Positions 2,297-55,900 of a DNA stretch of 64,000 nt are shown here, piece after piece. Both the position numbers and the translations under genes were made by a program. The stretch is from Candidatus Omnitrophota bacterium (GTDB lineage Bacteria > Omnitrophota > Gorgyraeia > Zapsychrales > Zapsychraceae), in NCBI GenBank assembly GCA_020429915.1, contig JAGQKV010000005.1:7125-71124 (forward strand), read 5' to 3'. Numbering within the stretch: position 1 is the stretch's first letter; each line of letters starts with the position of its first letter. The notes beneath the pieces were generated by a model. That model ran no database searches, had not been told where the DNA came from, and saw nothing but the letters and a program-made list of their open reading frames with translations.

Positions 2297-3604
2297 CTAC
2301 TTTCTTGCGGCCGCCTTCGGCCAAAACTGATCGATCAGTTTTTGATTCATCCCCGTTTCCGCCGGTTCAAAGCACTCGGCGAGGATGCGCCATCCGAGGT
2401 CGAGGGCGTCTTCCAACGGGATGTTGACGGAGAGGTCCATCAATTCCTTCTCGAACTTCACCCCGTAATTCAATAGTTTCTCATCCCATGAACTCAACTG
2501 GAAACCCATCGATCTCTTCTCCAATACCTCGCGGTAATCCGCGAAGAGCTGGATCATACGGTCCATGATCGCGCGGTGATCGGCACGGGTGTCCTTGTTG
2601 ACCTGCTGTTTCAGACGGCTCAACGAACCGAACGGCTCGATGCGCCCGCCGCGCAGATAAAATTGTCCCTCGGTGATGTAACCGGTGTTATCCGGGATCG
2701 GATGCGTGACGTCATCCCCGGGCATGGTGGTGACCCCGAGGATGGTGATCGAACCGGCGCCGGAGAAGTCGACGGCCTTTTCATAACGCGCGGCGAGCTG
2801 GCTGTAAAGATCGCCCGGATATCCGCGGTTGGACGGGATCTGTTCCATGGTGATCGCGACTTCCTTAAGAGCGTCGGAAAAGTTGGTCATGTCGGTCAAC
2901 AGCGTCAGCACGTTCTTGCCTTCCTGCGCGAATTGCTCGGCCACCGCCAGGCACATGTCCGGGACCAGCAGACATTCCACGGTGGGGTCGGACGCTGTGT
3001 GGATAAACATCACCGAACGCGACAGCGAACCCTGCGCCTCCAGCGTTTCCTTAAACGTCAGGTAATCGTCATATTTCAGACCCATCCCGCCGAGAATGAT
3101 GACATCGACCTCGGCCTGCATCGCGATCCGGGCAAGCAATTCATTGTACGGCTCCCCGGCGATGGAAAAGATCGGCAGTTTCTGCGAAACGACCAGCGTG
3201 TTGAAGACGTCGATCATCGGGATCCCCGTCCGAATCATGTTTTTGGGAACAACGCGTTTGGCCGGATTTACCGACGGCCCGCCGATCTCGATCATATTAT
3301 CGGTCAGTTCGGGCCCCTTGTCGCGGGGGATACCGGCACCGTTGAAGATACGGCCGAGCAGGTCTTCCGAATAGGCGACCTGAATTCCTTTCTTCAAAAA
3401 CCGGACCTTATCGTTGGTCGAGATCCCGCGGCTTCCGGCGAGGACCTGCAGGGAAACCTTGTTGCGGTCCAACCGGATGACCTGGGCCAGCGATGCGCCC
3501 AGCGACGTCTTGATCTCGGCCAGCTCCTTGTAAGCGATATCCTCCGCCTCGACCGTAATTACGTCGCCGACGATTTGCGTGATTTGGCTGTAGACTTTCT
3601 GCAT
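2297..3604 (-). CDS. atpB: V-type ATP synthase subunit B
   Basis: 435 aa, ...[55 protein letters not shown]..., the typical non-catalytic B-subunit nucleotide-binding region. Confidence 0.9.
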
Positions 3605-3632
3605 GACTTGCTCTCCAAGTTATCTCTTATCG

Positions 3633-3772
3633 GAATTTCGAATATCGAATATCGAATATCGAAGGAATATCGAATTCTCGAATCATCAAATCACCGAAAT
3701 TAACGCTTTCGAAGATTCGGGCATTAGACGATTCGATATTCCTTCGAACATTCGAAGATTCGGATTTCGATA
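3633..3772. repeat. Intercistronic palindromic element, copy 2 (three tandem cgaatatcgaa units, then inverted arms)
   Basis: aatttcgaatatcgaatatcgaatatcgaaggaatatcgaattctcgaa ... gattcgatattccttcgaacattcgaagattcggatttcgatatt, lying between the atpA stop and the atpB start. Confidence 0.6.
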
Positions 3773-3773
3773 T

Positions 3774-5552: not shown

Positions 5553-6084
5553 ACATCCCTTCGGGGAAGTCGACCTTTTTCAGCTCTTCGTACTTTTCCC
5601 TTCCCTGAGGGGACGCGATATTGTGGTACCGTTCGACAATCTTCAGTTTGAGTCCGTACAACATAATAAAGGCCGGGGTGTAAAACTCCCCGACCATCAG
5701 ATTTTCGTAGAAATTCCAACGCGCCCGGCTGAGCACCTTGTCCCCTTCCAACGGATCCGCGGCATTGGCCGCGTCCTTGACCAACTGCTGCAACTCGGGA
5801 TTGGCACCGTACGCGCCGCGGGTGACGGTCTGTGGATCGCGATTGAGTTTAAGCGCGCGATACACGGCGACATGGTTATTCAAACTTTGTTCAAATTCAA
5901 AAACCTGCTTGAGGACCGGGCTGGCGGTCGCGATGTGCTCTGCGCCGAGCAGCGCGACGAGCAGGCGGGCGTCGCCGCGCGTCATCTGCCGCCGGGCGTC
6001 GTCGAGAAATTCGGCAACCGTAAAGGGCAATTTGCCTGAGAAGGTGAGGACGGGTAAACTTGCTCCGAAGTAATAGTAGGTCAT
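5539..6084 (-). CDS. DUF2764-like protein of Bacteroidetes-type V-ATPase operons
   Basis: 181 aa, located between subunit E and subunit A, exactly where the DUF2764 gene sits in Bacteroidetes and Chlorobi V-ATPase operons. It overlaps the atpA start by 14 nt. The assignment rests on position and size rather than a diagnostic motif. Confidence 0.55.
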   Translation of the reverse strand: MTYYYFGASLPVLTFSGKLPFTVAEFLDDARRQMTRGDARLLVALLGAEHIATASPVLKQVFEFEQSLNNHVAVYRALKLNRDPQTVTRGAYGANPELQQLVKDAANAADPLEGDKVLSRARWNFYENLMVGEFYTPAFIMLYGLKLKIVERYHNIASPQGREKYEELKKVDFPEGMFANL

Positions 6085-37908: not shown

Positions 37909-40900
37909 TTAATCCACAATGATAACCGCGCCGCGTAACGGGCCGAAGATCCAGTGCGGTTCGGCCTCGGGACGGTCGGTATTGCCGGCATCCACGGAAT
38001 TGCCGGTGACGATATTGTTGGAGGACGCCTGCGAATCGCGGACATTGACGAAACCGACATTTTGTTCCGCCCCCGTCACATCCACTGTGAAACGGGTGCC
38101 CGTGGTCGAAGAACGGATGTTCAAACGGTTTGATCCGTTGAACCCGTCCAGAGTGAGCGTTCCGGCCACGGTGAGTGTCGACTGCTGACCGACCGTCAGG
38201 GTCCGGGCGGGGCCGGCGCTCAGCGTCTTGTCAAGACTGTAGAACGTCTCGGAGGCCGGGATCTCCTGATCGGCTCCATCCAGGACCACAGTGCCGCTGC
38301 GGGCCGCGAAGACCCCGCCGAAGTTCTCCCAATTGCCGCCGACATTGATCTGATAGTCGTTTCCGGCACTGACATCCAAGGTTCCGGCATTGAGCCGCAG
38401 CGTGCCGTTGACATCCAGCGCGGTTTGCAGGGTGTACGTGCCCACCGCGGTGGCCGGCATGTTGCCGTTGGCTAAAGCCTGGATTTCCGCGGTCGACAGT
38501 AACCGGTTATACATACGCACGTCGTCAATCAGCCCGTCAAACAATTCCGTCGGGAACGAGGCATTGGAACCGATCCGCACGTCGGTCACCGGAATATCCG
38601 TTACGGTCCCTCCGGTGGAACTGCCGCCGGTGACATCCGTACCGTTCACGTATATGGAGAACCTGTTCGCCGCCGATTGGGAAGCGTCATAGGTGACCAC
38701 CACATGCGTCCACACATCCTCAGTCACCACGGACTCGGCCTCGGTTACAATGCGATTGGCTCCTTGCGTGTAAAACCAAACAGAAATACCATCGGTAACC
38801 GATCCGCCGGGCAAGTCACCGCTTGAAACGGTATGGGTATAGAAATAGAAATAATTGTTCCCTCCCGCGGTTTGACTCCACAGCGTCGGCCACCCGCCGT
38901 TCGCGGTCAGGTCCTGGGTTAGGAACCACAGCGACCACGAATAGTCGTGGGAAATGTCAAAATCAAACACCGGATTATCGTCGATAGCCACATAGTCGCT
39001 GCTGCCGTCAAATTCGAGGCTCGCGGCATCCGCGAAGGCAATGGACCCGGAAATATCCGTGCTGGATGTCGGTGTTCCGGCCCATTCTCCATGATTACCG
39101 TAGCCGGACAAATCGCAGGCATCATCGAAAGTGGCGGCTGCGTTACAAACGCTGTTGGAATCCTCGGCTGTTTCATCGAGATTCCAGTAGCCGATCAACC
39201 CGTCATTGATGATCAAATCGTTGAAGATCGTGCCGCCCGTCGAGTCGATGGTCTCCGTTCCGGTCCCCGTAAACATTACCGCTCCCGATGAATGCGTAAA
39301 CGTACCGCCGGCGTGATCGAAGGAGGCGTCCAGTTCGGTGGTGTCGCTTGAAGCCGTGTAAACACCCGTCGTGATTGTGAGATTCCCGTCATGACGGAAG
39401 CGGTTGGTCGTTCCCGTAAACCGGCCGCCGGTCACGGTCGTGTCGCCGATAACAGCAACCGGTTCGATGATCGTGCTGTCGGCATAAGTCAGTGATCCTA
39501 AACTGATATCCAAACCATTGGTTACCGGGATATCATCCTGTAAGACCCAACCTCCATTCGGATTGCCCGCGGCAATATCGACGGCATAGAATGTTTGGGA
39601 ACCGGACAGGATTTCATTGTCGGGCGCTGAACTGTCGAAGACGACGATACCGCTATTCGGCGCAAATATCCCCCCGTTGTTTAACCAGCTCAATGCCACG
39701 TTGATCTGGCGATCGGCACCGGTATCAAGCGTGCCATCGTTGATCGACAAGCTGCCGTTGACGTCCAGATTATCCTGCAGGGTGTAGGTGCCCAGGCCGG
39801 TGCCCGGCATATATCCGTCGGCTATGCGCGCAATCTCGGCGGCCGACAACGCGCGGCTGTAGACGCGGACCTCATCGATACGGCCGTCGAAATCGCGGTT
39901 AAGATCACTGGCGCGCATACCGATACGCACCGTGTCGGTATAAGCATCGATACTCGAACCGGCTTGCGTATCCGATCCGGCCGCCCGTCCGTTGACGTAG
40001 AACGTGGCCACGTCCGTCGCGTCCTCCCATACAACAGCGACATGCTGCCACTCGCCAAGATCCACAACTTGATCATTAGAGGAGAACGTATAGTTGGTGC
40101 TGCTTCCCTCGAGTTGCAGAACCAGTCCCTCGTTCGGTTGGCCGCCGGAGTTGAGGTCGGAAATGTGGAACACCCATCCTCCTTCGTCGTTAAGCCCGCC
40201 GCCTTTGTCGACGATACGACCCTGAACACTCTGCCCCCAGGTATCCGGATAAATCCAGGCCGCTATGGTAATTCCGGCCGCCGTATCCAGATCCAACACA
40301 TCCGAATCGGCTATTTCGATATAGTCATTATTTCCATCCAGTTCGGCCGCTCCCGGATTATTGAAATTGATGGTGCCGTTAACCGACACGTTAACCGACA
40401 CGTCATTGACCCAGGTTCCGTCATGACCATACCCGGAGTAATCCACCGCCGGCGAGGCCGACTCATCCAATTTCCAGTATCCTACCAGTCCGTTGTTGAT
40501 CGCCAAATCATTAAAGGACTTGGTATCCGCCGTCACGGTCAGACTGCCGGTCGTTCCGGTCAGCACCACACTCGATCCCGTACTGGTAAAGACCCCTCCC
40601 GTCATATCCCAGATGCCGCCGACCGCGATGACGGTACGGCCGCCGGAACCGGAGGCGGCGTTCAGAGTTCCGTTAATATCCATGGTCCCGCTTAAGAAGA
40701 CGTCATAACCATCCGTGACCAAAGCATCCGTCGACATAATCTTCATCGACGTACCGGTCAGGTTGGTTGTGAGCGTAGTCATGTCGGGTGACTGACCGAC
40801 CACGATCCAGCCGACATCCTGCTGCGGCGATGTGTTGTCCGCGTAGGTGAGATCGCCGTCGAATGTCAACGTTCCGGCATCCGACTTGAGGAAGACCGTA

Positions 40901-43900
40901 CCCGCATCGAGGATGAAGTTGCCGGCAACGTTGAGATCGGAACTGTTTTGGTCGAATGTTCCGGCCTGCAGATTAAATGTGCCGTTTACGTCGAGATCAA
41001 CAAACGTCCGAAAGATGGTGCCGTCATTATCGAAGTTGACATTGTAGTAAACCGCGCCCAGCACCGGAATAGTATTGTCGTCGTCACGACCGGTGTATTC
41101 AACGATATTGCCGGTGGTGGCAAAATTGACCGTACCCAAGGCTGTGAAGCCTTCTCCGCCGAGATACAGGGTTCCTTCGTTTACGAACGTGGCGCCCGAA
41201 TTGACGGTCAATGTGGCGAGCGTCCCTCCGATAGTGAGCTGATCATCCGCCCCCATAACAAAGTACCCGCCGTTGTCGACCAACAGCGAACCGACCACCG
41301 TGGTGATGTTGGCGTCTTCATCATCCAGGGTGGTCACGACTCCGTTAGCGGTGTCCGCGTCGCGGTTCTGATTGTCGACCGTGAGAATGCCGTTGCCGGA
41401 ACCCTGAACGGCGGTCTCGGTATAGACGGTCCCCGCCGCGCCGTAGTCGGTGGCGATACCGATACCGCCGTAGGCATGCATGGTCCCGGTAAAGCTCATC
41501 AGATCGGCCGAAGTTCCGGTCAAGATAACGGCGATACGTCCGCCCCCTCCGCCGGCGCGTCCCTGGGCGGATCCGTCTCCCCCGTCGGCGTCAAAGGCCC
41601 CTGCCCCGGTAAGATATCCGGTGGTCAGATAAATGCTTCCGCCGGAACCCGCAGCGGCCGTAAAGTCCAGGTTCTCCTCGCCGACCGCGCTCATCGTCCC
41701 TTCGAGGGTCGTCGTGCCGGTGACCGTCAGGATGATGGCCCCGCCCCCGCTTCCGAGTTCATGCATTCCGGAGTCATCCAATGTCCCGCTACCGATATTT
41801 ACGGGCGCGGTGATCGATCCGTAGGTGGTACACGTATTCGTCTTCGGACTATGGTCCCCGCCGCAGCCGCCGTAGGACCCGCCGTCGCGCGCGGTCGTCG
41901 GGACACCCGGCCCGAACGAACTTTCATAACCCATATAATCCACATTGATCTCACCGCCGCTCTGAACAGTCAGGCTCCCGGTAATCGTCAGGTTCAATGT
42001 ATATGTTTCCGCCTCCCGGTTCATGGTGTGCGACAACCGCCCGCCGGAGGCCACCGTCCAATGACCGGTCACCGCTGATACGCCGTCCGGATGCAACGTG
42101 TAATTCGAGATCGTATAGGCGGCCGGGAAGGTGACGAGGGTGTCGTCGATAATCGTCACATAGGATTCGGATGCCCCCGATCCGGTAATCGTATCGTTGG
42201 TAAAATCATATGTATCGTCCGCACCGATGGCCAGGTGTCCGTTGTTGCGGATAACGATTTCGGCAAAGCTGTCCAGATTGACCGACGTCGGCATCAGCGT
42301 CGTGACCTCCGCGTAGGCATCGGCGCCGTCATTATCGATAATCAACGTTCCGCCGCCGGCGATGACGGCCTCCGTTTCCAGATAAACCGTACCGGCCGCG
42401 CCGTCTTCATGCTGACCGTCGGTGGACTTGCCGCCGAACGCGTTCATCGTACCGGTCCAGCTCATGAAATCGGCGCCGCTCGCCGTCAGCACCGCGGCGA
42501 TACGACCCCCGCCACCGGAACCGCGTCCGGTAATGCCACTACCGCCGTTGGCCGTCAAGGTTCCGGTACCGGTCAGTTGTCCGGCAGTAATAAAGATACT
42601 ACCGCCTGAACCGGACCCGTCACTGCCGTCTACCCCGTCGGCCGCGATCGTCCCGTCAATTGTTGCCGTGCCGGCCACTTCGAGGATAACCGCCCCCCCG
42701 CCGGAACTTCCCGTGGCGATGATGCCGCCGCCGCTTCCGATATTGACAGGTGCCGTGATCGAACCGTACACACTGGTGTTGGCCTCGCCACCCATATTGT
42801 AATCCCCGCCACTGCCGCCGTAGGCGCCGCCGACACGGCTGCCGGCCGGTTGACCCGGTCCCTGATTGGTATCATAACCCAGCCCGGAGACGTCAATCAT
42901 GGCCAGTGATCCCAGGTTGAAGTCGCCGTCGACCAGCATGATAAACCTGTTTGTTTCGGCGGTGCTGTTGTCCAGATGCCGCAATGTCCCCGTGACGAAG
43001 AAGGCATCACCCGACAGGCCCGTAGAGTCGTCCACTTCCATGGTGCCGGTGAGCACGATCGTTCCGGTGAATCCGGTCTGGGTTTCAATTTCCCCGATCG
43101 TCAAGGTTCCGGACGGCGTGTCGATGATGTGGCCGCTCGACATGAAGAACGCCTTGTCGGTCGCGTCATCCGGATAACCGTCATCCCCGGCCGAACCGTC
43201 TCCGAAGTCCCAGTTCAGTTCATCTTCCCATGTGGCCTGATCGGAAGCCCCGGTCCACTCGTAAATGCTGCCGAAGCTGAACACAAAATGCGGCGCCGCC
43301 TCCATTGAGTCGTTATTGCTGTTGTCGATGGAATTTGCGGCCAGGATATCATTGCTCAAGGCCTCGCCGTCGCTGACGTCCAGCCACATAACCCGTTCAT
43401 CACCGAGCTGAACATCCAGGTTCCACCGTGTTCCCGGCACGGAGCTGACCAGGTTGACGCGGTCGTCGGAATCGATACCGGCCACGGTCAGATTGTTTTG
43501 GACAGCGAACGTGCTGCCGGCCTCCAAGGTTATCACCGAGTCCGTCGCGTTATTGGTCGTTTCGACCTTGCTCAGATTATAGAATGTCGTGGAACCGACC
43601 AGGCTTTGCGTCGTTCCGTCGAGCGCGAAGGTGCCGCTTTGCGCGGTGAAGGTGTCGTTGTTGATCCAGTTGCCGGCCAGATTGATATCATAGTTGGCGG
43701 CGGAGACATCCAAATCCCCGCCGGCGATCGTAAGATCATTGTTGACATCCAGAGCCGAATACAATTCAAAGGTCGTGCCGCCGCCCGGCGTATCGTCCAC
43801 AATCAGGTTGTAGAATGTTTGCAGCTCCTGAACCCCTACCGTTCCGGACTGGGCGTCCATGGTCACGGAGCCGGACTGTTCATCAAAGACCCCGCCGTGA

Positions 43901-46900
43901 TTGAGCCAGAAACCGCCGACATCGATCGCACGGTTCGCGCCGGCATCCAGCTCCCCGCTGTTGATAATCAATGTCCCGTCAACGTCCAAGTCGGCTTGAA
44001 GCGTGTACGCGCCAACCGCCGCGGCCGGCGTGGACCCCGCAGCCAAAGCCGCTATTTCCGTTGAGGACAGGGCCCGGTTGTAAATACGAACTTCATCAAT
44101 GGCGCCGTCAAAGTCGCGCGTATTGGAATTCTCATGCCGTCCGATTGCCAACGGTTCAATGGAATCCGTTAGGGCTCCGGAGGCAGCCGTCGGTCCGGCG
44201 GTCAACGTTCCATCCTGATAAAGACGGACGCTGCTCCCGTTCCACGTGCCGGCCACATGCACCCATCCGTCCGCGGTTGTTACCGGATTACCGGTAATTT
44301 GTACCTGGGCACCGCCGACATGTATCCGGAAGATCATCGCCAGCGTTGAAGCCCGGTGGATAAGCGCGTAATCATCCGCGGTGCCACCATCGGACTTATG
44401 AATGATGCGGCCCCAACCGGTTCCCGGTGCGCCGTCAACACGCACCCATGCCGCGAGCGTCAGCTCCGTCAGATCCGACAACTCGCGACTTCGCGGAATC
44501 AGGACGTAATCGGTCGTCGCCCCGAAGTCCAAGGCCTGCGGATCGCGGAACTGGATCGCGGAACTCACGGATGACGTGGCTGCCGGCGTTCCCTGCCATG
44601 TTCCATGATTGCCGTACCCGCTGGAGTCGATAGACGTCGAACCGGAGGCCTCATCGAGCTTCCAGTACCCGATCAAACCGTCATTGACGATCACATCATC
44701 GAACACGGCCCCGCCGGTTACATCAATTCCGTGGTTGTCCGTGCCGGTAAACATCACCGTGGAGCTGCTGTTGGTAAAGGTGCCGCCGCTGTGCGTGAAG
44801 GTCCCGTCGATCTCCAGAACATCGGTCGGCGCGGTGTATTGTCCGGAACTGATCGTAAGATCGCCGTCGTGGCGGAAGCGCCGTGCGTTTCCGGTAAACG
44901 TACCGCCGGTCAATGTCGTGTTGCCGACGATCGCGACCGGTTCGATGGTGGTGTCCGTACTGTAGGTCAACACGCCCGCGCTGATGTCAAAAACATTGCT
45001 GACCGGGGCATTGTCCTGCAGGGACCATGTCCCGCTGGTCGTCACATCAACATTATAGAAGGTCTGCGAACCGGACAGGATTAATCCGACCGACGGGCCC
45101 CCGTCAAACAGGACATCGCCGTTATTGGCGGTAAACTTACCGCCGTTATTCATCCAACTGTCGGCGATCGTGATGTCCCGGTCGGAACCGGTATCCAACT
45201 CGCCGGAGTTAATGGTTAACGTACCGTTGATGTCGAGATCATCCTGTAATGTATATGTCCCTGCGGATGTCGCCGGCTGATAACCATTGGCCATGGCGCG
45301 AACTTCCGCAGCCGACAAGGCACGATTGTAAATACGCACCTCATCGATCTCACCCTGGAAGCTGTTGCCGCTACCGCCGCCGCCGATACCGAGGAAGGAC
45401 GGCCCGTCGATCGGCGTCCCCGTCACACTGCTACTTAAGGCTTCCTGGGTGCCGTTGACATAAATACGCTTCGTATTGGCCGCGTCATCGAACACCGCGG
45501 CCACGTGATACCATCGGTTAGCAGTAATAACAGCGGCGGTATCCGTTGATACCGTACTGACACTGCGAATAAAGAACCGCAACGCTCCGGCGCCGGGATC
45601 ACCCAGGGAGACCGCCCAGCCGTTGCTGCCGTTATCCTTGATCACGATCCGGCGACCGGCGGTAGCGATATCCTGCGCATACATCCAGAACGACACCGAG
45701 AAGCTGGTGGTCTGATCAAGCACATCCCCCATATTGATACTGTCACCGGTCCCGTCGAAGGTCACGCTGCGCGGATTCGTAAAGGTGATGGTCTCAGCCA
45801 CATTCGTATCGGCCGTCGCATTGCCGCCCCAGGCGCCGTCGTATCCGTATCCGGAGGAATCACACGCGTCGTTGGTGCCTCCGGAACAGGTGTCGGCCGC
45901 GGCCTCATCGAGTTTCCAATATCCTACCAATCCGTCATTGAGCGTTACATTGTTAAAGGCATTGGCATTGGAGGTAATCGTCGCCGACGCGGAGGTGCCG
46001 GTGAAGAGCACCGTAGAGTCCGTAGCCGTGAAGACCCCGCCGGTGGCATCCCAGTTACCGCCCACAACGGCCGTGACCGCGCCGTCCGTACCGCTGCCTA
46101 TATCCAAGGTGCCGTTGATATCGACATTGCTGCCGATGGTCAATTCATAACCGTCGGCATCAAATGTCCCATCCGCCACGGCCAGTGAACCGTTAATGTA
46201 CAGATCGCTGACCGTCCGCACGGTGTAATCTCCGCCGGCGTTTCCGTCATTCACAGTCAGGTTGTAGAACGAATTGCTGCCCATGGTGATGGTCGCCGTT
46301 CCGGTCGTCCCGTCAAAAATGACGGTCGAGACGGACTCAGTAAAGATACCGCCGGAAGAATCCCACGGCCCGCCAAGCGTAATGGTGGTCGCCGCGTCCG
46401 TACCGCTGGTGGCATTAAGCGTACCGTTGATCGTTACAGTACCGGCGATATCCACTTCATAACCGTCGGTGATAAGGGCATCGCCCGTGTCAACGGTCAA
46501 CGTGGTAGCGCTCATGTCCGTGGTCAAAGTGGTGGTATCCGGTGACGACCCGATGACCAGCCGCCCGAGATCCTGTAGCGGGCTGGTGTTGTCAGCAAAG
46601 TACAGGTCGCCGTCAAAGGTCAGAGTACCGCTGCCGGTCGGCTTGGTAAAGGTGGTCCCGGAAGCCAAAGTAAAGTTGCCTGCGACGTTCATGTTGTTAT
46701 TGCCCTGGACAAAGAACCCGTCATCCAAATTGAACGAACCGTTAATGTCCAGAGCCGCCGTGTTGGTGAAAGTTGTTCCGGCATTGTCCGCGCGTAAATT
46801 GTAGTAGACACGATCGAGGATACTGACCCCAGCGTCATCATCCTGTCCGATATAAACCACATCGCTGCCGGTGGTGCTGAAAGAAATGTCGGTTAGATCG

Positions 46901-49900
46901 GCCACGCTGAACACCGATCCGCCCAGGTTTAACGTCCCCTCATTCACCAGCGATCCCGTGACGTCGATGGTTAACGTGGTCAGCGTGCCGCCGACGGTCA
47001 GCTCATCGTCGGAGCCGATCGTGAAGTCCGCGTTGTTCAGGATCACCAACGATCCGACCACGGTGGTGATATTCACGTCTTCGTCATCCAGGGCCGTAAT
47101 GACGTTTCCGGCAGAAGCGGTGTCCTGTCCGTTATTATCGATGATCAGGATACCGTTGCCCGTTCCCTGCGCCTCGGTTTGCCGGTACAATGTTCCGGCC
47201 GCCCCGGCGCCGTTGGCCGCCCACTGCGGACCGCCGTAGGCGTGCATCGTCCCGGTGACATCGAAGGCGCTGAAATCAGCCGATGCGCCGGTGAGGATCA
47301 CGGCAATCCGGCCGCCGCCCCCGCCGCCGCGGCTGTTGGTCCCCCCGCCCCCGTCGGCAGAAAACGCGCCGGTCCCGGTGAGAAATCCGGTGGTCAGGTA
47401 AATACTTCCCCCGGCGCCGCTTCCGTCCGCGTCGCCGAAGGCCCCGTCCGCGGCCATAGTCCCGTTGACTGTGGTGGTTCCCGAGACATTCAGGATAATA
47501 GCCCCGCCGCCGTGCGCGTAACCGAAGGTATTGATCGACCCGCCTGAACCGAAGTTTACCGGCGCGGTAATAGACCCGTAGGTACTGGATGTCGCGCCGT
47601 CGTCATCGTGATCCCCACCGCGGCCGCCATAGGCCCCGCCGTTTTCAGCAATAACCGGTGATCCCGGGCCGTAGCCGGAGGTATACCCCTTTTCACTCAC
47701 ATCGACGGCGCCGTCCGCGTTGATGACCAGGTCGCCGGCCAGCGTCATATTCAACAACCAGGTTTCCGCCGTGGCGTTTTGTGAATGGGAAAGGACACCG
47801 TCGGTTATGGTCCAGTCTCCGGTGATACTCGACAGGCCGTCCCCGTTCAGCGTGTATCCGGTCAACGTATACGGATTCGGGAACGTCACCAGGGTATCGT
47901 CGATGATGGTGATAAACGCGTCGTTTTTACCTTCGGTGGTCAGGTTCGCCGTCCCAAAGGTCAGGGTGTCATCGGCATCCACGCCGAGGTATCCGCGGTT
48001 GCGGATAACGATATCTTCAAAGTTGTTGAGATTAACGGCCGTCGGCATCAAGGTGACGACCGTTCCGGTGACCGTCAGGTCGTTGTTGTCGATAATGAGT
48101 GTTCCTTGACCGGAGGCGACATCCGGCGCTTCCAGATAAATGGTTCCGGCCGCACCGTCTTCATAATCGGCAGTGGCCTCCCCGCCATGGGCCTGCAGCG
48201 TGCCGGCTACGTTGAAGGCGCTGAAATCCGCTCCCGCGCCGGTGAGGATCACGGCGATCCGGCCGCCGCCGCCGCCCGCGCGATCGGATGCCGGAAGATT
48301 GGATCCGCCGTTGGCCGCAAGCGCTCCCGATCCCTGGAGATTATCTGCCGTAATGAAGATGGATCCACCCGACCCCGATGTCCGGCCGCCTTCACCGCCG
48401 GCGGTGATGGTCCCGTCGACGGTAACCGTACCGGCAACGGTCAAGATGACTGCCCCGCCTCCGGAACCGTCGCCGAACGAGTTCACACCGCCCGATCCGA
48501 TATTGACCGGCGCGAACAGAGAACCGTAGGTGGTTGACTCCGTTCCGTCGCGGCTGTGGTCCCCGCCGATACCGCCGTAGCCGCCGCCGTTGTCCATGGA
48601 GACCGGAGCTCCCGGACCGAAACTCATATCGTAACCCAAGGCGTCCACATTGATTTGCGCGCCGCTGGCTACGACCAAGTAACCGTCGGCCTGAATGACG
48701 ACCTTGCTGGTCTCTGTATTTGAATTATCAGGATGCGTCAAAGTTCCGGTAGCTATGGTAACGTTACCGGAAAGTCCCATCGCGTCGTCGGCTACCAGCG
48801 TACCGGTCAATGTCACCGATCCGGTGAAGTCGCTGGACATCTCAAAACTGGCCAAGGTTAACGTACCGGCCGGCGTGGTGATATCATCGGCAGAGATCAA
48901 AACCAGGGCTTCATCGAAATTGTCGTCCGGATAACCGTCGTTACCCGGAGACGCGTCGCCGAAGTCCCAGTTCGCCTGATCCGTCCATGTGGCACCGTCC
49001 CCGTTGCTGGTCCACTCATAGATGTCTCCCGGAGAAATAATCCAGTGCGGCGTCAATTCGTCGGTGTCATTATTACTGGTATCCAGCGACCGCCGCGCGA
49101 TGATATCGTTGCTGGACGTCTGCGAGTCGGTCACGTCGATGAAGCGGGCGCGCTGATCGGCATCGGTGACATCCAGCGTGAAGCGCGTACCCGGCGAGCT
49201 GCTGACCAGATTGATACGGTCGTCGTTGTCCAAACCTTGCAGGGTCAGCGTGCCGTCAACGGTAAAGACTGTTCCGGCCTCAAATGTCAGGACGGAGTCG
49301 GTGCCGTCATCGGTCGTTTCATTCTTGCTCAGATTGTAGAAGCTGGTCGTTCCCGAAATAGCCTGCAGGGTGCCGTCGAGGGTCACAGTGCCAGTCTGAG
49401 CCAGGAAGGTATCGCTGTTATCCCAGCCGCCGGCCAAATTGATCGTGTGATTATTACTGCTCGCGTCGAGCGTCCCGGCGGCGATCGTCAACGTTCCGTT
49501 AATATCGAGCGGTGAATATTGTTGCACCGTACCCGCGCCTCCCGGAGAATCATCAACCGTCACATGGTAGAAGGTTTGCGTTTCCTGTACGGTAACCGTT
49601 CCAGATTGTACGTCAAAGGTGACCGCACCGGTCTTTTCATCAAACGTCCCACCGTGATTGAACCAACTACCAGCGACATTGATACTACGGTTGTCGCCGA
49701 TGTCGAGTTCCCCGCTATTTAGTGTCAGAGTACCGTTGATATCCAGGTCCGTTTGCAACGTATAAATTCCCGTTTGGGTCGCCACCTGACCGCTGTTAGT
49801 AACGGCGGCAATCTCGGCGGCCGAAAGGACACGGTTGTAAATTCTCACCTCATCGATACGGCCATCGAAATGTTCCTGAGCACCTCCGATACCTCTTCCG

Positions 49901-52900
49901 ATTTTGACGTCGTAGTTCGTACCCAAAGTATCGGCATCAGCCCCCGAGCCATCTGGCATCCCGTTCAGATAGAAACGGACCGTCGTGCGATCGTAGGTAA
50001 CAGCCACATGATACCATTGCCCCGCGGATAAGGCGGTACTCGCTTGTATTTCTGCGGAAGTGGCATCGGTCCGGAATCCCCAATTCCCGCCGGCCCCGCC
50101 ATTGTATGTACTGGCCATAAATCGCCAATTTGTCTGATTGCCCGTGCTATTGGACCGGGTTACGATAATTTCCTCAGGATCAGCCGCTCCGTCGATATAA
50201 ATCCAAGCCATGATCGTAATCGTATCGGTTATCGCCAACGAGTCGGTCGCCCCGCAATTCAAATAATCGCCGTCAGCGTTGTCGAAGTCCAAACTTCCTG
50301 GATCAGTAAATGAAACCTCCGGAACTTCCGTGCTGGCAGTGGGACTATTTATCCAAGTACAATCATTATCGTAACCGCTATAATCGAAGGACGGCGAAAC
50401 AGACTCCGTCATTTTCCAGTAGCCCACCAGCCCGTCATTAATTATAACGTTGTGGAAACTCGTTCCTGCACTTGTATCAATTTGTCCTCCCGTCACCGTA
50501 CCGGTGAACATAACGGTCGATGTGCTGTGGGTGAACGTACCGGCAGAATGCACAAAAGATCCGGTTATCTCCAGGACATCCGTCGGCGCCGTGTACGTGC
50601 CGGCCTGGATCAACAGGTTACCGGCATGACGAAAACGGTTGGCCGTACCGGTAAACGTCCCGGCGCCTCCGCCGGTCGTAATCCGGTAAGTTCCTTCAAT
50701 AGTAACCGGTTCGATATTGGTATCGTCCGAATAAGTCAGTACACCGTCACGGCTGTCAAATATGGTGGTTATCGGGAAGTTGTCTTGCAGCGTCCATGTC
50801 CCGGCACCGTTGATCTCGGCATCATAGAAAGTTTGTGATCCGGAGAGGATCAGCGATCCGGTACCGGCACCGTCAAAGATAACATTGCCGCTGTTGGCCA
50901 CAAACGCCCCGCCGTAATTGAGCCAACTGCCGCCGACATTGACATCCCGGTCGGCACCCGTATCCAAGGCCCCGCTGTAAAACTGCAACGTTCCGTTCAC
51001 ATCCAAATTATCCTGCAATGTGTAGGTCCCCAGCGCGGAACCGGGCATGGTGCCGGCTGCCAGCAATCGTATTTCCGCGGCGGACAAGGCACGGTGATAC
51101 AGGCGCACTTCATCGATATAGCCGCCAAAATAAACGGCATTAGTGGAACTGTTGAATGTGCTTGCCTCGGAGCCATCCCCGATAAACCCGTATCTGGTCG
51201 TCCCCGTTCCCAGAGCGGTCCCAAGCGCAAAGGCATTGCTGGATTCGGCCACACCGTCTATGTAGATAATGGAGTCATTTGTAACTGTGGCATCATACAC
51301 CCCACAAACATGATGCCATTGATCATCGTTTACAGCGGAAGCGGAACATTGATCATTGACAGTCGCTCCACTGTCGGCAACGGACCACTGCACCTCTCCG
51401 TTGGCGCAAGATGTGAAGTTGATACTCAATGAGAAGTATTCGCTGCGGTCGAAGTCGATGATAGCCCCATCAGTATCCGTCGTTCGGATCCAGGCACAGG
51501 CCGTTACAGCCTCCAATTGCCCGACCTGATCGTAATTCAGATCCCGAATCGCAATATAATCAGTTCCGTCCAGGAAGATACTGCGCCGGTTATCGTATCC
51601 GATATTTTCGGCGACGGTGGTCGTCGGCGTGGGAGAACTGCTCCAGAACCCGTCGTATCCGTTTTTCGTAAGATCACAAGAGTCGTCTACACCGCCGCTG
51701 CAGGTGTTGCCCGCACTTTCTTCGAAGCGCCAGTATCCGACAAGCCCGTCATTGAATATCACATCATTAAAAGAGCTACCGTTAGACGTGATGGTTTCAT
51801 TTTCGGTAGACGTAAAAATCAATGTTCCGGTAGATGTAAATGTACCGCCGGTGGCATCCCACAACCCTCCCACCTTGACATCACCGCTTTGCATCGTGAA
51901 GGTGTCGTTGATATCCACATCATCGAGCGTAAGTTGTTTGTCGTCATCGGTAATGGCCGTTCCGTTGGCGATCGTCATGGTCGAAGTGACCGTAACCGCG
52001 GTATCCGGGAAAGTCCACGTGCCGCCGGCATTGTCGAAGGTCAAGCGGTAGTAGCCGGTGATATCGGCCGTCAATGTGCTCGTGACCGCGCCGTCATATA
52101 TCGCCAACCCGCCGATTGCCTGTGGGGTCAGGATAGAAATCGTCTCATCACCTTGGGCGATGAACGTCCCGTCGGTATCAAACGACCCTTCCAGATCCAG
52201 GTTATTCGCGTTGAGGTCCAAGGTCTTCGACAACAGGAGCCCGCCATCCACATCCAAAGTCTGCGCCATGGTCCAGCGGCCGGACACCGGATCCTGCGCT
52301 CCGGCAGCCAAGGCCTGGATTTCCTCCATCGACAATACGCGGTTGTAAATCCGGACATCATCGATAGACCCGTTCCACGCCCCTGAAGTACACGATGCGG
52401 AGTTGCAGCCGATGGCGAAGTCGTCGGTCACGGAGATGTCTTCGACCGACGAGTCTTCCGTAATATCGACCGTAGTTCCGTCGACAATAATAAAGTGATG
52501 CGTCGGCGTCCGGCCGGCCGCGATATGGTGCCAGGCCCCGTCCATCACCGTGGCGCTGGTGGCCGTATCGGTGATCGCACTGGTTTCATCAATCCGCAGG
52601 AAGAATCCTCCGCCCGAGGTATAGCGTATCTGATATCCGTTGGTAGAACGTTTATCGACAACCTTCTGCGCGTTAGTGGTATCCGAACCCTTGACCCAAA
52701 CGGAAATGGTAAAGTATTCGTTGACCCCAAAGTCGAGTTCACCTCCGCTTGGATCACCAACGTTCACCGTGGAAGTGGTTCCGTTAAAGGCATAGGCGAG
52801 CGGATCGGTGAAGCTGATTGCGCCCGGCACGGAGGCATCGGCAGCGATATTTGCCGTCGTTCCATGATTGCCATAACCGCTGCTGTCCAAGGCGGTGGCG

Positions 52901-55900
52901 GCGACTTCATCCAGCTTCCAGTATCCGACCAATCCGTCGTTGAGACTGACATTGTTAAAGACGGTGCCACCGGAGAAGTCGGGCGCTACGGAGGTCGTTC
53001 CAGCCCACACCCAAGTTCCGCCGTTATTAGTAAATGTCCCGCCGGTGTGGTTCATGGTTTCCGTCAGAACGTAATTGGTAGACGGCGCGGTGAAGGCCCC
53101 TGAAGAGATCGAGAGCTGACCGTCATGGCGGACGTCATTGGCCACCCCAGTGAAAGTCCCGCCATCCACGCTCAGACTTCCGGTCAGCAGAATCGGCAAT
53201 GGGCTGGTCGCGGTCGTCAGGGTTCCGGCGCTGATATTTCCTTCGTTATTGACGTCGATGGCGTCGTAGAGTGTCCACGTACCGCTGCCGGTTTGCTGCC
53301 ACGTGTCAAAGGCCATTGTGCCGGTTTGTATGACAAGCCCCGTCCCTGTTCCGTCCATGGTCACGGTATTGTTGTTCGTGGTGTATATACCGCCATTGTT
53401 CAACCAGCTCCCCGCGACATTGATGTTACGGTCGGATCCCGTATCGAGTTCCCCGGCATTGATAGACAGTGTTCCGTTGATGTCGAGATCATCCTGCAAC
53501 GTAAATGTTCCGGCCGCAACCTGCGGCAGGTGTCCGTTGGCCAGCCGGCGGATCTCGGCGTAAGACAGCGCCCGGTTGTAAACACGCGCCTCATCGATGT
53601 GTCCGTCCCAAAAATCATTAACTGTCGTAAAACAGCCCGCGTCCGAATCGGCTCCGATCAGCAACGGACATCCGGTAAAGCTCATCGCGACCCCGTCGGT
53701 TCCCGTCGAGGCATCAAGCACGCCGTTGATGTAGATTCTAATCGTGCTGCCCGACCGGGTCACTGCAACATGATTCCATGTGACACCGTCAGTGGTGATG
53801 GTTTGGGCAGATGTCACCCGTGAGACATTGTTGGTGTGGACAACTATCTGATTCGATGCGTTCGCCAGAATAACAAATTCGTTGTTACCGGAAGTGTCGG
53901 CATTCATGAAGATCATATCGTTGGCCGTGGCTGTATCGTGGATAACCCAAGCACTATAGGTAAAGTCTCCGGTAGGTGTATTGAACCCGGTGGCACGAAC
54001 ATATTCATTGGACCCGTTGAAATCCATACTCCGTAGACTGGTAAATCTTAACCGCGGTGGAACCACTGTGGATGGCGTGGGGGTGTTGATTTGCGTTCCA
54101 TCATATCCATACCCGCTAAAATCGTATGAGGTCGTACCGGATGTCTCATCGAATTTCCAGTATCCTGTCAAACCGTCATTCAGATACAGGTCGTTAAACG
54201 CATTGCCGTTAGACGTAATGGTCGCCGTCCCGCTAGAGGACATGATCACACTGCCCGTAGACGGAGTGAATGTTCCGCCGGTAGCATCCCAGTTCCCTCC
54301 GACCCGAATTTCACCGGCGGCCATGGTCAGCGTATCTTGAATGACCATATCATTGGAAACGGTCAGAATCTTGTCGTCGTCATTCGTCACGATCGCGTCG
54401 GCGATCGTCAGCGACCCATTGACAGTCAGATCGATATCCGGCAGCGTGAAGGTCGGATCGGACGTGCCTTCTTCGTCAAAGGTCAAATCATAGTAAGTGC
54501 TGAGCGTGGCATTGATGGTCACACTGGAGGTGCCGTCATACATGACCAAACCGGAATCGGAATCAAAGGTCCCGATTTCAAATCCTTCGGAGCCTTGCAT
54601 ACGCAAAGTCCCGTCATTGCTCAGAATTCCGTTGAGATCGAGCGTCTGGCCGTTGAGGTCCAACGTCGACCCGTTATTGATGGTCAACTGGGTGTCGACC
54701 TCCAGCTCGGTGTTGATCATCTGCAGGAAGCTGTTGTTGGTAATAACCAGGTTCGGAAAGTCGCGGGTGCTGTCATTAATAGCTGTACCCGTCCCGCCGG
54801 CGTCGATCGTCTGTACCGCACCGCCCTGGAAGGTGACAGTACCGACCATACCGAAGGATCCGGTATTCTCCCAGTTACCGTCGACTGAAATGGTGTAATT
54901 TGAGACATTCAACGTCCCCTCGATGTCCAGCGAATGCGTCTCGATGGCTCCCTGGCTGATATAAGTCTGATTCATCGGAACAAGCATTTCGATCCCCGAA
55001 CCGACCTGCAATGTATTTCCGGCGGTGACCGTGAAGATATCGGTGATATCGGTGTCGCCGTTGTCATCTCCATCGGCCATCAGCGTATTGGAATTGAAGC
55101 CCATGTTGTCGCTGCGCACGATGAGATATCCCGCGTATATGTCCACATTGGATATATCCTCATCCGAGGCGATAGTGACCGTCGCACCCTGGCTGGCTTC
55201 GTCATCGATATATAGCGTCAGCGTGTCCCCGGCATTCATCATCAACCCGGTCAAACTGTAAGTTCCGCTTCCGTCGGTATCATCGGTCGCGGCGGCGGCG
55301 GCTCCATCGATGGAGATGGCGACGGTAATGCCCGCCCCGATATTGGTCGATCCTTCGTCGGTGAATACCGTTCCGGAAATATTGACGGTCGGCGTGGTAA
55401 ACAACCATTCGGTGTTGTTGCCGGAATTCACACAGTTATTGGTACAATCGATTTCCGTGGCATTCACGTTCCAGGAATCGGTGACATCCAGATAAGAGAC
55501 GCTGCGCGTTCCCTGCGGATTAATTTCCCACTGAATGAGGCTGATTTCCGTTCCCCGCAGCGTCAGCAGCTGTCCGGCCGCGCCGTTCATGGTCATCGCG
55601 CCGGTAATGATCTGTCTTTCCATCGTTTCAAAGGTGAATGTGGCAGCCGTCGTAACGTTCTTGCGGAAATTGTTAAAGGTCGTCGAATCATAGATCGTCT
55701 GATCGCCGCCATCGAAGTCGATGGTTCCGGTCGCCGTATACGTACCGCCGGGACGCATCCAGTTTCCAGCCAGCAGGATGCTGTTACCGCCGTCGGCCAC
55801 GGTCCCACTTTCGATGGTGATCGTGCCGTTGACATCCATGTCGCTGCCGGCCGTCCACGTTCCGGAGCCGATGAATTCCAGATTGTAATATTCATCATCC

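What the first reader, a model, noticed from the sequence alone, without database searches (positions are those of the whole stretch)
40492..50433. Two paralogous ~1.4-1.5-kaa super-repeats (A: 45934-50433; B: 40492-44679), each with two Gly-rich modules
The order of sub-modules is identical in both copies. Each starts with a LamG domain, followed by a beta-helix cap, a ...HWIISPGDIYEWT...NWDFGD... region, and a first Gly-rich module (GYDMSFGPGAPV...GGGYGGIGGDH...GGGAVILTVAG...GGGGGRIAVILTG). Next come a beta-helix region and a second Gly-rich module (GYTSGYGPGSPV...GGAYGGRGGDH...GGGAIILNVSG...GGGGGGRIAVILTG), and each copy ends with a further beta-helix region. The copies have diverged to roughly 60-70% amino-acid identity, so they are ancient duplications and not assembly duplicates. 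The Gly-rich modules, with GGxGGDH, GGGAIIL and GGGGGRIAVILTG spaced about 35-45 aa apart, do not match any family I can name with confidence. They are candidates for a novel Gly-ladder beta-solenoid. The protein also ends (...DRPEAEPHWIFGPLRGAVIIVD) exactly where a third HWII.PGDIYEW unit would begin, as if truncated within a unit.
Basis: seen in the sequence. Interest (0 to 1): 0.65.

Follow-up and report, generated by a model that had tools for sequence, protein, structure and literature searches.

The report
Uncurated glycine-ladder solenoid repeats, giant protein
The region is part of a giant (more than 8,600 amino acids) probable surface-fibre protein of an Omnitrophota bacterium. Its four glycine-rich modules belong to a very large, widespread family of secreted repeat domains that has no database entry and no solved structure, so the family is uncatalogued rather than rare.

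Summary
Segments A and B of one minus-strand ORF (37909 to beyond 64000, more than 8,696 aa) are collinear paralogues. They share 52-54% amino-acid identity, not the reported 60-70%. Each starts with a Pfam LamG domain and carries two ~300-aa Gly-rich modules.

The true tandem period is ~1,918 aa (2.45 copies). Third-codon identity is 43%, and independent assemblies reproduce the locus, so the duplication is old and real.

The modules match nothing in Pfam, NCBIfam, PHROGs or PDB sequences. They are not rare, however: a profile finds 13,771 cluster representatives. These are typically head-to-tail arrays of 3-12 copies behind signal peptides, with Ig or dockerin ends, in PVC-group (Planctomycetota-Verrucomicrobiota-Chlamydiota superphylum) and other phyla and in two large viral contigs.

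AlphaFold2 predicts a rigid solenoid (pTM 0.86-0.89). Each module has a confident ~65-residue Gly-rich stretch without regular strands. Foldseek finds no significant PDB match, only generic beta-helices.

The protein is not truncated. It ends at a recurrent domain boundary, with a tail (WIFGPLRGAVxIxD) conserved in a syntenic orthologue.

The most likely role is a rigid shaft of an adhesive fibre that displays LamG lectin-like domains. I rate it a new variant of a known kind, of moderate interest.

The parts
37909..64000 (-). Giant ORF with stop codon TAA at 37909-37911. It is 8,645 aa counted from the GTG at 63846 but stays open in frame to the window edge, so the protein exceeds 8,696 aa and its N-terminus lies outside the window. 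Composition: G 13.6%, T 13.5%, D 9.1%, K 0.7%, C 0.3%; pI 4.05; no TM-like segment.
45937..51690 (-). Super-repeat unit 1 (aa 4053-5970). Order: LamG, spacer, LamG, beta-helix with end motif, cap, Gly module A1, Gly module A2, beta-helix tail.
40495..45936 (-). Super-repeat unit 2 (aa 5971-7784), with the same order of parts. It is 52.5% identical to unit 1.
37912..40494 (-). Partial super-repeat unit 3 (aa 7785-8645): two LamG units plus a beta-helix with the end motif. It is 43-46% identical to the heads of units 1 and 2 and ends the protein.
49810..50433 (-). LamG (Laminin_G_3) domain at the start of A (aa 4472-4679).
44053..44679 (-). LamG (Laminin_G_3) domain at the start of B (aa 6390-6598).
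45301..45933 (-). LamG domain between A and B (aa 5972-6182). It is the first LamG of unit 2.
51070..51747 (-). LamG domain (aa 4034-4259), the first LamG of unit 1.
49030..49809 (-). Beta-helix segment of A (aa 4680-4939) that ends in the recurrent domain-end motif ...SxDxSNNDx...PHWII.
48892..49029 (-). N-cap motif of A (aa 4940-4985): IYEWT...W...NWDFGD...PDD..D.A. The same W...W...NW type of cap occurs at aa 719-760 and 1517-1560.
47917..48855 (-). Gly-ladder module A1 (aa 4998-5310).
46909..47865 (-). Gly-ladder module A2 (aa 5328-5646).
45937..46908 (-). Beta-helix tail of A (aa 5647-5970). It contains one more ~100-aa sub-repeat than the tail of B.
43135..43272 (-). N-cap motif of B (aa 6859-6904).
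42193..43071 (-). Gly-ladder module B1 (aa 6926-7218).
41155..42111 (-). Gly-ladder module B2 (aa 7246-7564).
40495..41154 (-). Beta-helix tail of B (aa 7565-7784).
37912..37959 (-). Conserved C-terminal tail PHWIFGPLRGAVIIVD. The syntenic orthologue P0290 ends ...PRWIFGPLRGAVLIID.

Best explanation
The finding lies in the C-terminal half of a giant protein (more than 8,696 aa) of a Candidatus Omnitrophota bacterium. The protein is acidic, all-beta and poor in Cys and Lys, and is probably secreted as a surface fibre.

The region is a tandem super-repeat of ~1,918 aa in 2.45 diverged copies. Each full copy contains, in order:
- two LamG (concanavalin-A-like lectin) units, separated by beta-helical spacers;
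- a W...W...NW cap;
- two head-to-tail copies of a ~300-aa 'Gly-ladder' solenoid module;
- a beta-helical tail.

Each module begins with ordinary beta-helix rungs. A ~65-residue Gly-rich segment follows (GY..GPG...GG[HY]GG.GG...YGS..P...GSGG). Then come three to four rungs that each open with a Gly run and continue into a strand (GGGAxxL, GSGGSIxL, GGGGGRIA, GAAGTxY).

The module belongs to a very large, uncurated family of secreted repeat domains that usually form arrays of 3-12 copies. The most likely working model is that consecutive modules stack coaxially into a rigid rod. This rod would serve as the shaft and spacer of an adhesive fibre and hold the laterally attached LamG domains away from the cell, where they could bind glycans on a prey or host cell or on a surface.

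Shown here: the repeat anatomy, the LamG assignment, the family size and array habit, signal peptides and extracellular partner domains in relatives, a confident rigid predicted structure, and the conserved C-terminus.

Inferred: secretion of this particular protein (its N-terminus is outside the window), the rod-like stacking geometry, glycan binding by LamG, and the adhesive role.
For: - Collinear paralogy.
- LamG: nine Laminin_G_3 copies, each far above the Pfam cut-off.
- Organism: identical or >=90%-identity cluster mates of the adjacent pyrG and carA genes are named Candidatus Omnitrophota.
- Module family found with a window-only profile: 386 hits down to E 1.6e-93, from Patescibacteria, Verrucomicrobiota, Kiritimatiellia, Planctomycetota, Desulfobacterales, Zetaproteobacteria, Chloroflexota and others. 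All are 'hypothetical' and nearly all have no Pfam domain.
- Exhaustive HMMER search: 13,771 representatives at E<=1e-3 and 6,081 at E<=1e-30, with the best hits carrying 3-12 copies.
- Copy spacing is mostly 250-350 aa, i.e. head-to-tail.
- Many full-length relatives start with a typical Sec signal peptide followed directly by modules. Partner domains are Ig, dockerin, GC-type dockerin and CarboxypepD_reg.
- AlphaFold2 models: one module gives pLDDT 87.2 and pTM 0.89. Cap plus two modules (755 aa) gives pLDDT 83.8 and pTM 0.86, i.e. one rigid body.
- The nearest solved folds are all beta-helical fibres, adhesins or lyases, though none is significant.
- A 1,439-aa ORF on a 320-kb viral contig has two tandem modules and weak PHROG tail-protein hits elsewhere in the ORF.
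- Composition and absence of TM segments.
- Literature: Omnitrophota long proteins include 'tandem-repeat scaffolds' with up to 36 PF13385 copies (bioRxiv 10.64898/2026.06.07.730766). Most domains of Omnitrophota giant proteins are predicted to be extracellular (bioRxiv 10.1101/2023.11.21.568195).
Against: - No experimental data exist for any member of the family.
- The N-terminus, and so the signal peptide, of this protein is not in the window. No known C-terminal sorting domain is present.
- No coordinates could be inspected, so coaxial stacking is inferred only from the high pTM and the DSSP string.
- The near-invariant non-Gly residues could mark a binding or catalytic site rather than pure scaffolding. 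In 610 copies these are H/Y 97%, Y 90%, P 92%, R 93% and T 92%.
- LamG co-occurs with the module in only 3 of the 150 best family members, so the lectin-display idea is specific to this architecture.
Confidence: 0.6

Rival explanations
1. The Gly-rich core of each module is a polyglycine-II-type helix lattice embedded in a beta-solenoid, comparable to the ALK/LTK glycine-rich domain, phage gp38 adhesin tips or snow-flea antifreeze protein. It would act as a ligand- or receptor-binding face rather than as inert scaffold. This reading is compatible with a fibre role.
For: - About 65 residues per module have pLDDT of about 89-98 but almost no DSSP strand or helix (residues 57-120; residues 132-196 and 448-513).
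- Gly content of the modules is 19-21%.
- The gp38 receptor-binding domain of phage PP01 appears among the Foldseek hits for the two-module model, though at E 0.68.
- BFVD hits include Gly-rich 'collagen-like' giant-virus proteins and prasinovirus proteins (E 1e-4 to 5e-3, TMq 0.31-0.37).
Against: - There is no Pfam PF12810 hit even at E<=1 in 40 members.
- ALK/LTK structures are not among the Foldseek hits, and the gp38 hit is not significant.
- Gly runs here are short (3-6 residues) and each leads straight into a beta-strand, as in tight solenoid turns.
- Backbone angles could not be examined.
Confidence: 0.2
2. The modules are catalytic or carbohydrate-binding beta-helix domains, for example polysaccharide lyase- or hydrolase-like. 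The giant protein would then be a multi-site enzyme that attacks prey or host cell envelopes.
For: - The best (non-significant) fold neighbours are PL3 and PL6 lyases.
- Conserved H/Y, Y and R residues occur across 610 copies.
- Omnitrophota giant proteins have been implicated in cell-wall degradation (bioRxiv 10.1101/2023.11.21.568195).
Against: - Foldseek E values are >=0.1 and TM scores <=0.29.
- No CAZy-type Pfam or NCBIfam family is hit.
- Conservation is dominated by Gly.
- The domain occurs as 3-12 head-to-tail copies per protein, which is typical of structural repeats rather than catalytic domains.
- No conserved acidic or Ca-binding cluster is present; Asp in GGxGGD is conserved in only 9% of copies.
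Confidence: 0.12
3. The modules are Ca2+-binding RTX-like beta-rolls, built from GGxGxD motifs, of a type I-secreted adhesin.
For: Each window module contains one GGxGGD[HY] string. The protein is giant, acidic and has no recognised C-terminal anchor.
Against: - There is only one such string per ~300 aa and no tandem nonapeptides.
- The Asp is conserved in only 9% of 610 family copies.
- There is no HemolysinCabind (PF00353) hit.
- Rungs are ~30-40 aa rather than 18 aa.
- Relatives carry Sec signal peptides.
Confidence: 0.03
4. The A/B duplication or the abrupt C-terminus is an assembly artefact, or the gene is a truncated pseudogene.
For: Repetitive giant genes are prone to misassembly. One other assembly breaks inside this gene: the L003 contig starts within it.
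Against: - A and B differ at about 47% of residues and 57% of third codon positions.
- No long near-identical DNA repeats are present.
- Six contigs from other samples or assemblies are 99.5-100% identical over up to 21,224 nt, covering the stop codon, all of B and part of A.
- The C-terminal tail and the downstream synteny (carA-carB-purF-pyrG-rpe) are conserved in an orthologue that is 44% identical.
- The 26-kb frame is uninterrupted.
Confidence: 0.03

Closest known systems
[quoted passage not shown] Also the giant Omnitrophota proteins of West-Roberts et al. 2023 (bioRxiv 10.1101/2023.11.21.568195).
   Same: Same phylum. The protein exceeds 5,000 aa and has nine PF13385 copies in the window. 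Its repeats are diverged at the nucleotide level, as those authors report for the class.
   Different: Those papers do not describe the Gly-rich module; the term 'glycine' does not occur in either text. This protein lacks the SecA, peptidase, glycosyltransferase, dockerin and TSP3 content of the 'Archaeovorin' and 'Dockerin-type' giants.
Right-handed parallel beta-helix proteins: pectate or alginate lyases (PL3, PL6), phage tailspikes, autotransporter and TPS passenger domains, tapirins, and beta-helical ice-binding proteins.
   Same: A predicted solenoid of short strands in ~30-40-aa rungs. These are the only kinds of solved structure that Foldseek retrieves. Like adhesins and tail fibres, the module occurs in long extracellular proteins.
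   Different: No significant structural match (E>=0.1, TM<=0.29) and no Beta_helix, PbH1 or Pectate_lyase Pfam hit. The family has a specific Gly-run ladder and a ~65-residue Gly-rich segment without regular strands. It also has a fixed ~300-aa super-rung unit that is itself tandemly repeated.
G8 domain (PF10162)
   Same: The first ~40 residues of the module (...GxLTH...l.l.v.G.l.v..gg.I.v) align weakly with the first third of the G8 profile. Five of 40 relatives hit it, the best at E 9.6e-6, and P0062 is precomputed as G8.
   Different: The window copies score 12.3 bits against a cut-off of 22.9. Only profile positions ~1-52 of 124 are matched. The Gly-rich core and the GGGGGRIA rungs lie outside G8.
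Glycine-rich polyproline-II helix bundle domains: ALK/LTK glycine-rich domain (PF12810), phage gp38 adhesin and snow-flea antifreeze protein (reviewed in bioRxiv 10.1101/2023.11.25.568672).
   Same: Gly runs followed by strands, and a confident non-alpha, non-beta Gly-rich segment in the model.
   Different: No sequence or significant fold match. The Gly runs are shorter and embedded in a solenoid. PGII geometry was not verified.
RTX beta-roll repeats (PF00353) and chlamydial Pmp GGA[ILV]/FxxN repeats (PF02415).
   Same: Gly-rich turns stacked in a beta-solenoid of a large secreted protein. The strings GGxGGD and GGGA[IV]IL are superficially similar.
   Different: No tandem nonapeptides, no conserved Asp and no FxxN. 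No HMM hits.

Membership tests
Laminin_G_3 / concanavalin-A-like lectin (PF13385), for the LamG parts | Pfam HMM score above the gathering threshold over the full domain | tested here: met
   A scores 107 bits and B 109.5 bits against a cut-off of 27.6, over profile positions 3-151 of 151. There are nine copies in the window ORF.
Omnitrophota long tandem-repeat scaffold proteins (bioRxiv 10.64898/2026.06.07.730766) | Omnitrophota origin, a protein above 5,000 aa, and one Pfam family (here PF13385) repeated many times | tested here: met
   Cluster mates of the neighbouring pyrG and carA genes are named Candidatus Omnitrophota. The ORF exceeds 8,696 aa. It has nine PF13385 copies. The class definition was read.
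Right-handed parallel beta-helix (Pfam Beta_helix, PbH1, pectate-lyase clan) | Match to a clan HMM | tested here: not met
   No such family appears at E<=0.01 in A or B, nor at E<=1 in 40 family members.
Right-handed parallel beta-helix (Pfam Beta_helix, PbH1, pectate-lyase clan) | Significant structural superposition on a solved beta-helix | tested here: inconclusive
Right-handed parallel beta-helix (Pfam Beta_helix, PbH1, pectate-lyase clan) | Stacked rungs of three short strands | tested here: met
   DSSP on the confident AF2 models shows successive strand triplets, for example E121-126/129-132/135-137 and E151-156/158-160/164-166. This rests on prediction only; handedness was not checked.
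G8 domain (PF10162) | HMM score above the gathering threshold across the ~124-position profile with its eight conserved glycines | tested here: not met
   The window module scores 12.3 bits against 22.9, matching profile positions 13-52 only. Five of 40 relatives match weakly and partially, and P0251 scores 21.6 bits over positions 1-46.
RTX beta-roll (PF00353) | Tandem GGxGxDxUx nonapeptides with a conserved Asp | tested here: not met
   There is one GGxGGD per module. Asp is present in 9% of 610 aligned family copies. There is no PF00353 hit.
ALK/LTK glycine-rich domain and other PGII-helix bundles (PF12810; gp38) | HMM match or significant fold match | tested here: not met
   No PF12810 hit at E<=1. 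ALK/LTK is absent from the Foldseek lists, and gp38 appears at E 0.68.
ALK/LTK glycine-rich domain and other PGII-helix bundles (PF12810; gp38) | Packed polyglycine-II helices (backbone phi/psi about -75/145) | not testable with these tools
Only the DSSP string and pLDDT are returned.
Chlamydial Pmp repeats (PF02415 / TIGR01376) | Alternating GGA[ILV] and FxxN tetrapeptides, plus an HMM match | tested here: not met
   No Pfam or NCBIfam hit. The family consensus has GGG..l and AnGG but no FxxN.
Unnamed 'Gly-ladder' ~300-aa solenoid module family (defined here) | The signature ...G.Gy....GPG...GG.[HY]GG.GG...YGS...P...GSGG...GGG...L...G.I.AnG...GsGGSI...G.G.I.AnGG...GGGGGR[IV]A...GaaGT.[YF], with a significant match to independent members | tested here: met
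   All four window copies carry the signature. A profile built only from the window copies retrieves independent proteins at E down to 1.6e-93. The family HMM scores the window copies at 280-295 bits; those copies were part of the HMM.

The most novel reading that the evidence does not exclude
The ~300-aa module would be a fold class of its own: a beta-solenoid whose core contains a stacked ladder of glycine runs and a ~65-residue polyglycine-II-like, non-beta segment. No such structure is represented in the PDB. The 13,771 or more cluster representatives that carry it, across PVC bacteria, Omnitrophota, Patescibacteria and large viruses, would then form a major unrecognised class of extracellular fibre-building domain. 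The domain might have a conserved ligand-binding site at the invariant H/Y-Y-R positions.
Probability: 0.2. Interest if true: 0.6.

Novelty: new variant of a known kind. Interest (0 to 1): 0.4.

Why it matters
Giant repeat proteins are the signature feature of Omnitrophota and of many PVC-group bacteria, yet most of their length is unannotated 'dark matter'.

This analysis delimits one recurrent building block: its boundaries, its signature, its habit of forming arrays and a confident predicted structure. The block is absent from Pfam, NCBIfam, PHROGs and the PDB, although it occurs in more than 13,000 protein clusters.

Curating it as a family would annotate a large amount of sequence. It would also give structural biologists a defined ~300-aa (or two-module, 640-aa) target with an unusual glycine-rich core. 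It does not by itself reveal a new biological mechanism.

Tried and rejected
- Pfam, NCBIfam and PHROGs scans of A, B, the modules and family members gave nothing for the Gly module. They found only LamG-type hits, a weak partial G8 hit, and a TafC hit that covers the LamG part.
- PDB sequence searches with the 4-sequence and 40-sequence profiles returned only chance-level hits: a DARPin, amnionless and an adenovirus hexon.
- A genome-contig scan with a single-sequence query returned only one distant Holophagae fragment, so orthologue copy number could not be compared.
- An exact 60-mer from the window edge was not found in JGI metagenome contigs, so the N-terminus could not be reached.
- The locus of P0001, the best homologue, had no DNA on file and showed an unrelated context.
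- Rejected readings: an RTX beta-roll (motif statistics); Pmp repeats (no FxxN, no HMM hit); truncation within a unit; assembly duplication.

Full report
**1. What is at the coordinates**

The interval 40492-50433 lies inside a single minus-strand ORF, listed as 37909..63846 (8,645 aa). The frame has no stop between 63846 and the window edge. The in-frame translation continues GSAWALACNDQADGDWNNAGTWDC..., so the protein exceeds 8,696 aa and its N-terminus is outside the window. The protein is acidic (pI 4.05). It is rich in G (13.6%), T (13.5%) and D (9.1%), very poor in K (0.7%) and C (0.3%), and has no TM-like hydrophobic segment.

**2. The observation**

Global alignment gives 53.8%. The 60-70% estimate is too high; only local 100-aa windows reach 65-66%.
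- A chunked self dot-plot and DNA repeat spacings of 5,754-5,772 nt show that the true tandem period is ~1,918 aa. Unit 1 is aa 4053-5970 and unit 2 is aa 5971-7784 (52.5% identical). Unit 3 is partial, aa 7785-8645 (43-46% identical to the heads of the other two).
- The 104-aa length difference between A and B is one extra ~100-aa beta-helical sub-repeat in A's tail.
- Pfam confirms Laminin_G_3 at the start of A and B (107 and 109.5 bits against a cut-off of 27.6). The window ORF holds nine such domains.
They are the only significant copies in the ORF.

**3. Real and old, not an artefact**

- Between A and B, codon position identities are 63.7%, 70.8% and 42.6%. Synonymous sites are therefore nearly saturated.
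- DNA-level repeats are short (32-104 nt) and only 60-82% identical.
- Contigs from other samples and assemblies that carry the identical adjacent carA gene are 99.5-100% identical to the window. The longest match spans 21,224 nt (window 26511-47734), covering the stop codon, unit 3, all of B and part of A.

**4. Organism and context**

Downstream on the same strand lie carA, carB, purF, pyrG and rpe. Further on are pyrB, pyrC-like, pyrD, pyrF, glmS and V/A-type ATPase subunits. This is an ordinary chromosomal neighbourhood. The pyrG and carA proteins cluster at >=90% identity with proteins named Candidatus Omnitrophota.

Omnitrophota are known for very long proteins. A 2026 preprint lists 'tandem-repeat scaffolds' with up to 36 PF13385 copies as one architectural class. 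[quoted passage not shown] Neither text mentions a glycine-rich module.

**5. What the Gly-rich module is**

No curated family or solved structure matches it:
- Pfam gives nothing at E<=0.01 on A or B, and nothing at E<=1 on 40 members apart from a weak hit to the first third of G8.
- NCBIfam gives only a TafC hit over the LamG part.
- PHROGs gives nothing.
- PDB sequence searches give only chance-level hits.

The module is nevertheless common:
- A profile of the four window copies finds 386 proteins (best E 1.6e-93). They come from Patescibacteria, Verrucomicrobiota, Kiritimatiellia, Planctomycetota/Phycisphaerales, Lentisphaerae, Desulfobacterales, Zetaproteobacteria, Chloroflexota and others. 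Nearly all are 'hypothetical' and lack Pfam domains.
- An exhaustive HMMER search of 1.84 billion cluster representatives finds 13,771 proteins at E<=1e-3 and 6,081 at E<=1e-30. The best are 1.1-7 kaa proteins with 3-12 copies.
- Copies are spaced mostly 250-350 aa apart, i.e. in head-to-tail arrays.
- In six such proteins Pfam and NCBIfam annotate only terminal Ig and dockerin (including GC-type dockerin) domains. NCBI names them by those domains.
- Many full-length members begin with a typical Sec signal peptide followed directly by modules.
- Two large IMG/VR contigs (151 and 320 kb) encode a 1,439-aa ORF with two tandem modules and weak tail-protein PHROG hits elsewhere in the ORF.

The family signature from 610 aligned copies is...G.LTH...(two ordinary rungs)...G.GY....GPG.......GG.[HY]GG.GG...........YGS...P...GSGG...G.GGG...L...G.L...G.I.AnG.......GGGSGGSI......L.G.G.I.AnGG......GGGGGR[IV]A..Y....A.GG......GGAGT.[YF]......G.L..DN. 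The most conserved non-Gly residues are H/Y (97%), Y (90%), P (92%), R (93%) and T (92%). The Asp of the window's GGxGGD is present in only 9% of copies.

**6. Predicted structure**

- With a 40-sequence alignment, AlphaFold2 models module A1 at mean pLDDT 87.2 and pTM 0.89.
- A 755-aa construct (cap plus A1 plus A2) gives pLDDT 83.8 and pTM 0.86, i.e. a single rigid body.
- DSSP shows rungs of short strand triplets. Each module also has a ~65-residue stretch with very high confidence but almost no strand or helix; this is the segment GY..GPG..GG[HY]GG.GG..YGS..P..GSGG.
- After it, successive rungs each open with a Gly run: GGGAVIL, GSGGSIF, GGGGGRIAV, GAAGTIY. 'Gly ladder' is therefore a fair description of the sequence register.
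- Foldseek against the PDB finds nothing at E<0.1 (TM<=0.29). The list consists of generic beta-helical proteins: PL3 and PL6 lyases, tailspikes, autotransporter and TPS passengers, tapirins and ice-binding proteins. A gp38 adhesin domain appears at E 0.68.
- Against predicted viral structures there are marginal matches to prasinovirus and Pandoravirus Gly-rich proteins (E 1e-4 to 5e-3, TMq about 0.3-0.37).

**7. The C-terminus**

The stretch before the stop (...DSQASSNNIVTGNSVDAGNTDRPEAEPHWIF) aligns with five other places in the protein: aa ~716, 1514, 2815, 4935 and 6855. At each of these a beta-helical domain ends in SxDxGNNT..W[LI]F. In four of the five, a W...W...NW cap of the next domain follows. 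The protein therefore ends at a domain boundary.

The syntenic orthologue P0290 comes from another Omnitrophota MAG. It is followed by carA-carB-purF-pyrG-rpe and is 44% identical over 463 aa. It ends ...SPRWIFGPLRGAVLIID, against ...EPHWIFGPLRGAVIIVD here. The tail is thus a conserved, genuine C-terminus and possibly an unrecognised sorting or anchoring peptide. Another relative, P0291, continues past the same boundary into a Gly module, as units 1 and 2 do.

**8. Mechanism**

The best-supported reading, at confidence about 0.6, is a giant secreted fibre. Head-to-tail Gly-ladder modules and the other beta-helical segments would form a rigid shaft. The LamG (lectin-like) domains would then be displayed to bind glycans on a host or prey cell or on a surface.

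- Shown: the anatomy, the family size and array habit, signal peptides and extracellular partner domains in relatives, and the rigid predicted structure.
- Inferred: secretion of this particular protein, rod geometry, LamG ligand binding and the adhesive role.

Rivals:
- A PGII-type hybrid fold with a binding face (0.2; not exclusive with the main reading).
- Catalytic or carbohydrate-binding beta-helix modules (0.12).
- An RTX-like Ca-binding roll (0.03; the motif statistics argue against it).
- An assembly artefact or pseudogene (0.03).

**9. Novelty and score**

The protein as a whole is a new member of a described class: Omnitrophota LamG-rich tandem-repeat scaffolds. The Gly-ladder module is an uncurated, structurally unsolved but very widespread variant of the beta-solenoid theme. 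I rate it 'new variant of a known kind', interest 0.4. It is useful for family curation and as a structural target, but it does not reveal a new biological mechanism.

Noticed in passing
window 37912-37959 (minus strand), stop codon at 37909-37911; L009:1-1831: The last 14 residues (WIFGPLRGAVIIVD) are almost identical in a syntenic orthologue that is only 44% identical overall (WIFGPLRGAVLIID). The tail matches none of the known C-terminal sorting signals I could recall, such as PEP-CTERM, LPXTG, a T9SS C-terminal domain or dockerin (a comparison from memory, not a search). It may be an unrecognised anchoring or secretion tail.
   Followed up: partly
window 63847-64000 (minus strand): The giant ORF is still open at the window edge. 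The extra in-frame residues (…WALACNDQADGDWNNAGTWDCAVIPDADDDVTV…) look like another W...W...(N/T)W beta-helix cap, so the true start lies further upstream.
   Followed up: partly
window ~59050-62230 (aa ~540-1600 of the ORF): The N-terminal part holds a second, independent super-repeat. Segments aa ~540-800 and ~1340-1600 are >=60% identical, within a long run of ~100-aa beta-helical sub-repeats that share 35-60% identity (aa 1-2300).
   Followed up: no
aa ~716, 1514, 2815, 4935, 6855 and 8632 of the ORF (e.g. window 49030-49100 and 43273-43340): A domain-end motif recurs: ...G.LTL.G....R..L.S...G..W.L......(V/I)DV.DS.A........S.D.GNN(T/D)..W(L/I)F. In four of the five internal occurrences (aa ~716, 1514, 4935 and 6855) it is followed by a W...W...NW cap; at aa ~2815 and at the C-terminal copy it is not. 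The cap region gives weak Pfam 'Amnionless' and PDB amnionless hits.
   Followed up: partly
L010:691-5010 (IMGVR_UViG_3300038679_000051, 320 kb) and L011: A 1,439-aa ORF on large viral contigs carries two tandem Gly-ladder modules (E 1e-33 and 3e-40). It also has weak PHROG 'baseplate wedge' and 'major tail' hits outside the modules. The module may therefore also be used in viral tail or fibre proteins.
   Followed up: partly
BFVD hits A0A6H1QWC9, A0A7S6NY19_2 and S4VX73: The module model has marginal structural matches to uncharacterised and PA14-domain proteins of prasinoviruses and to a 'collagen-like' Pandoravirus protein. This hints that related Gly-rich solenoids exist in giant viruses of eukaryotes.
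   Followed up: no
window 6800-37734: The window has an unusual concentration of nucleotide-biosynthesis genes on the minus strand: pyrF, pyrD, a pyrC-like amidohydrolase, pyrB, glmS, pyrG, purF, carB and carA. The giant gene sits immediately upstream of carA, with a 174-nt gap. This synteny is conserved in the orthologous MAG.
   Followed up: partly
window 3603-5651 (+) versus 3774-5552 (-): Two long overlapping ORFs lie on opposite strands next to V/A-type ATPase genes. The 682-aa plus-strand ORF has no Pfam hit and is probably a shadow ORF of a minus-strand gene.
   Followed up: no
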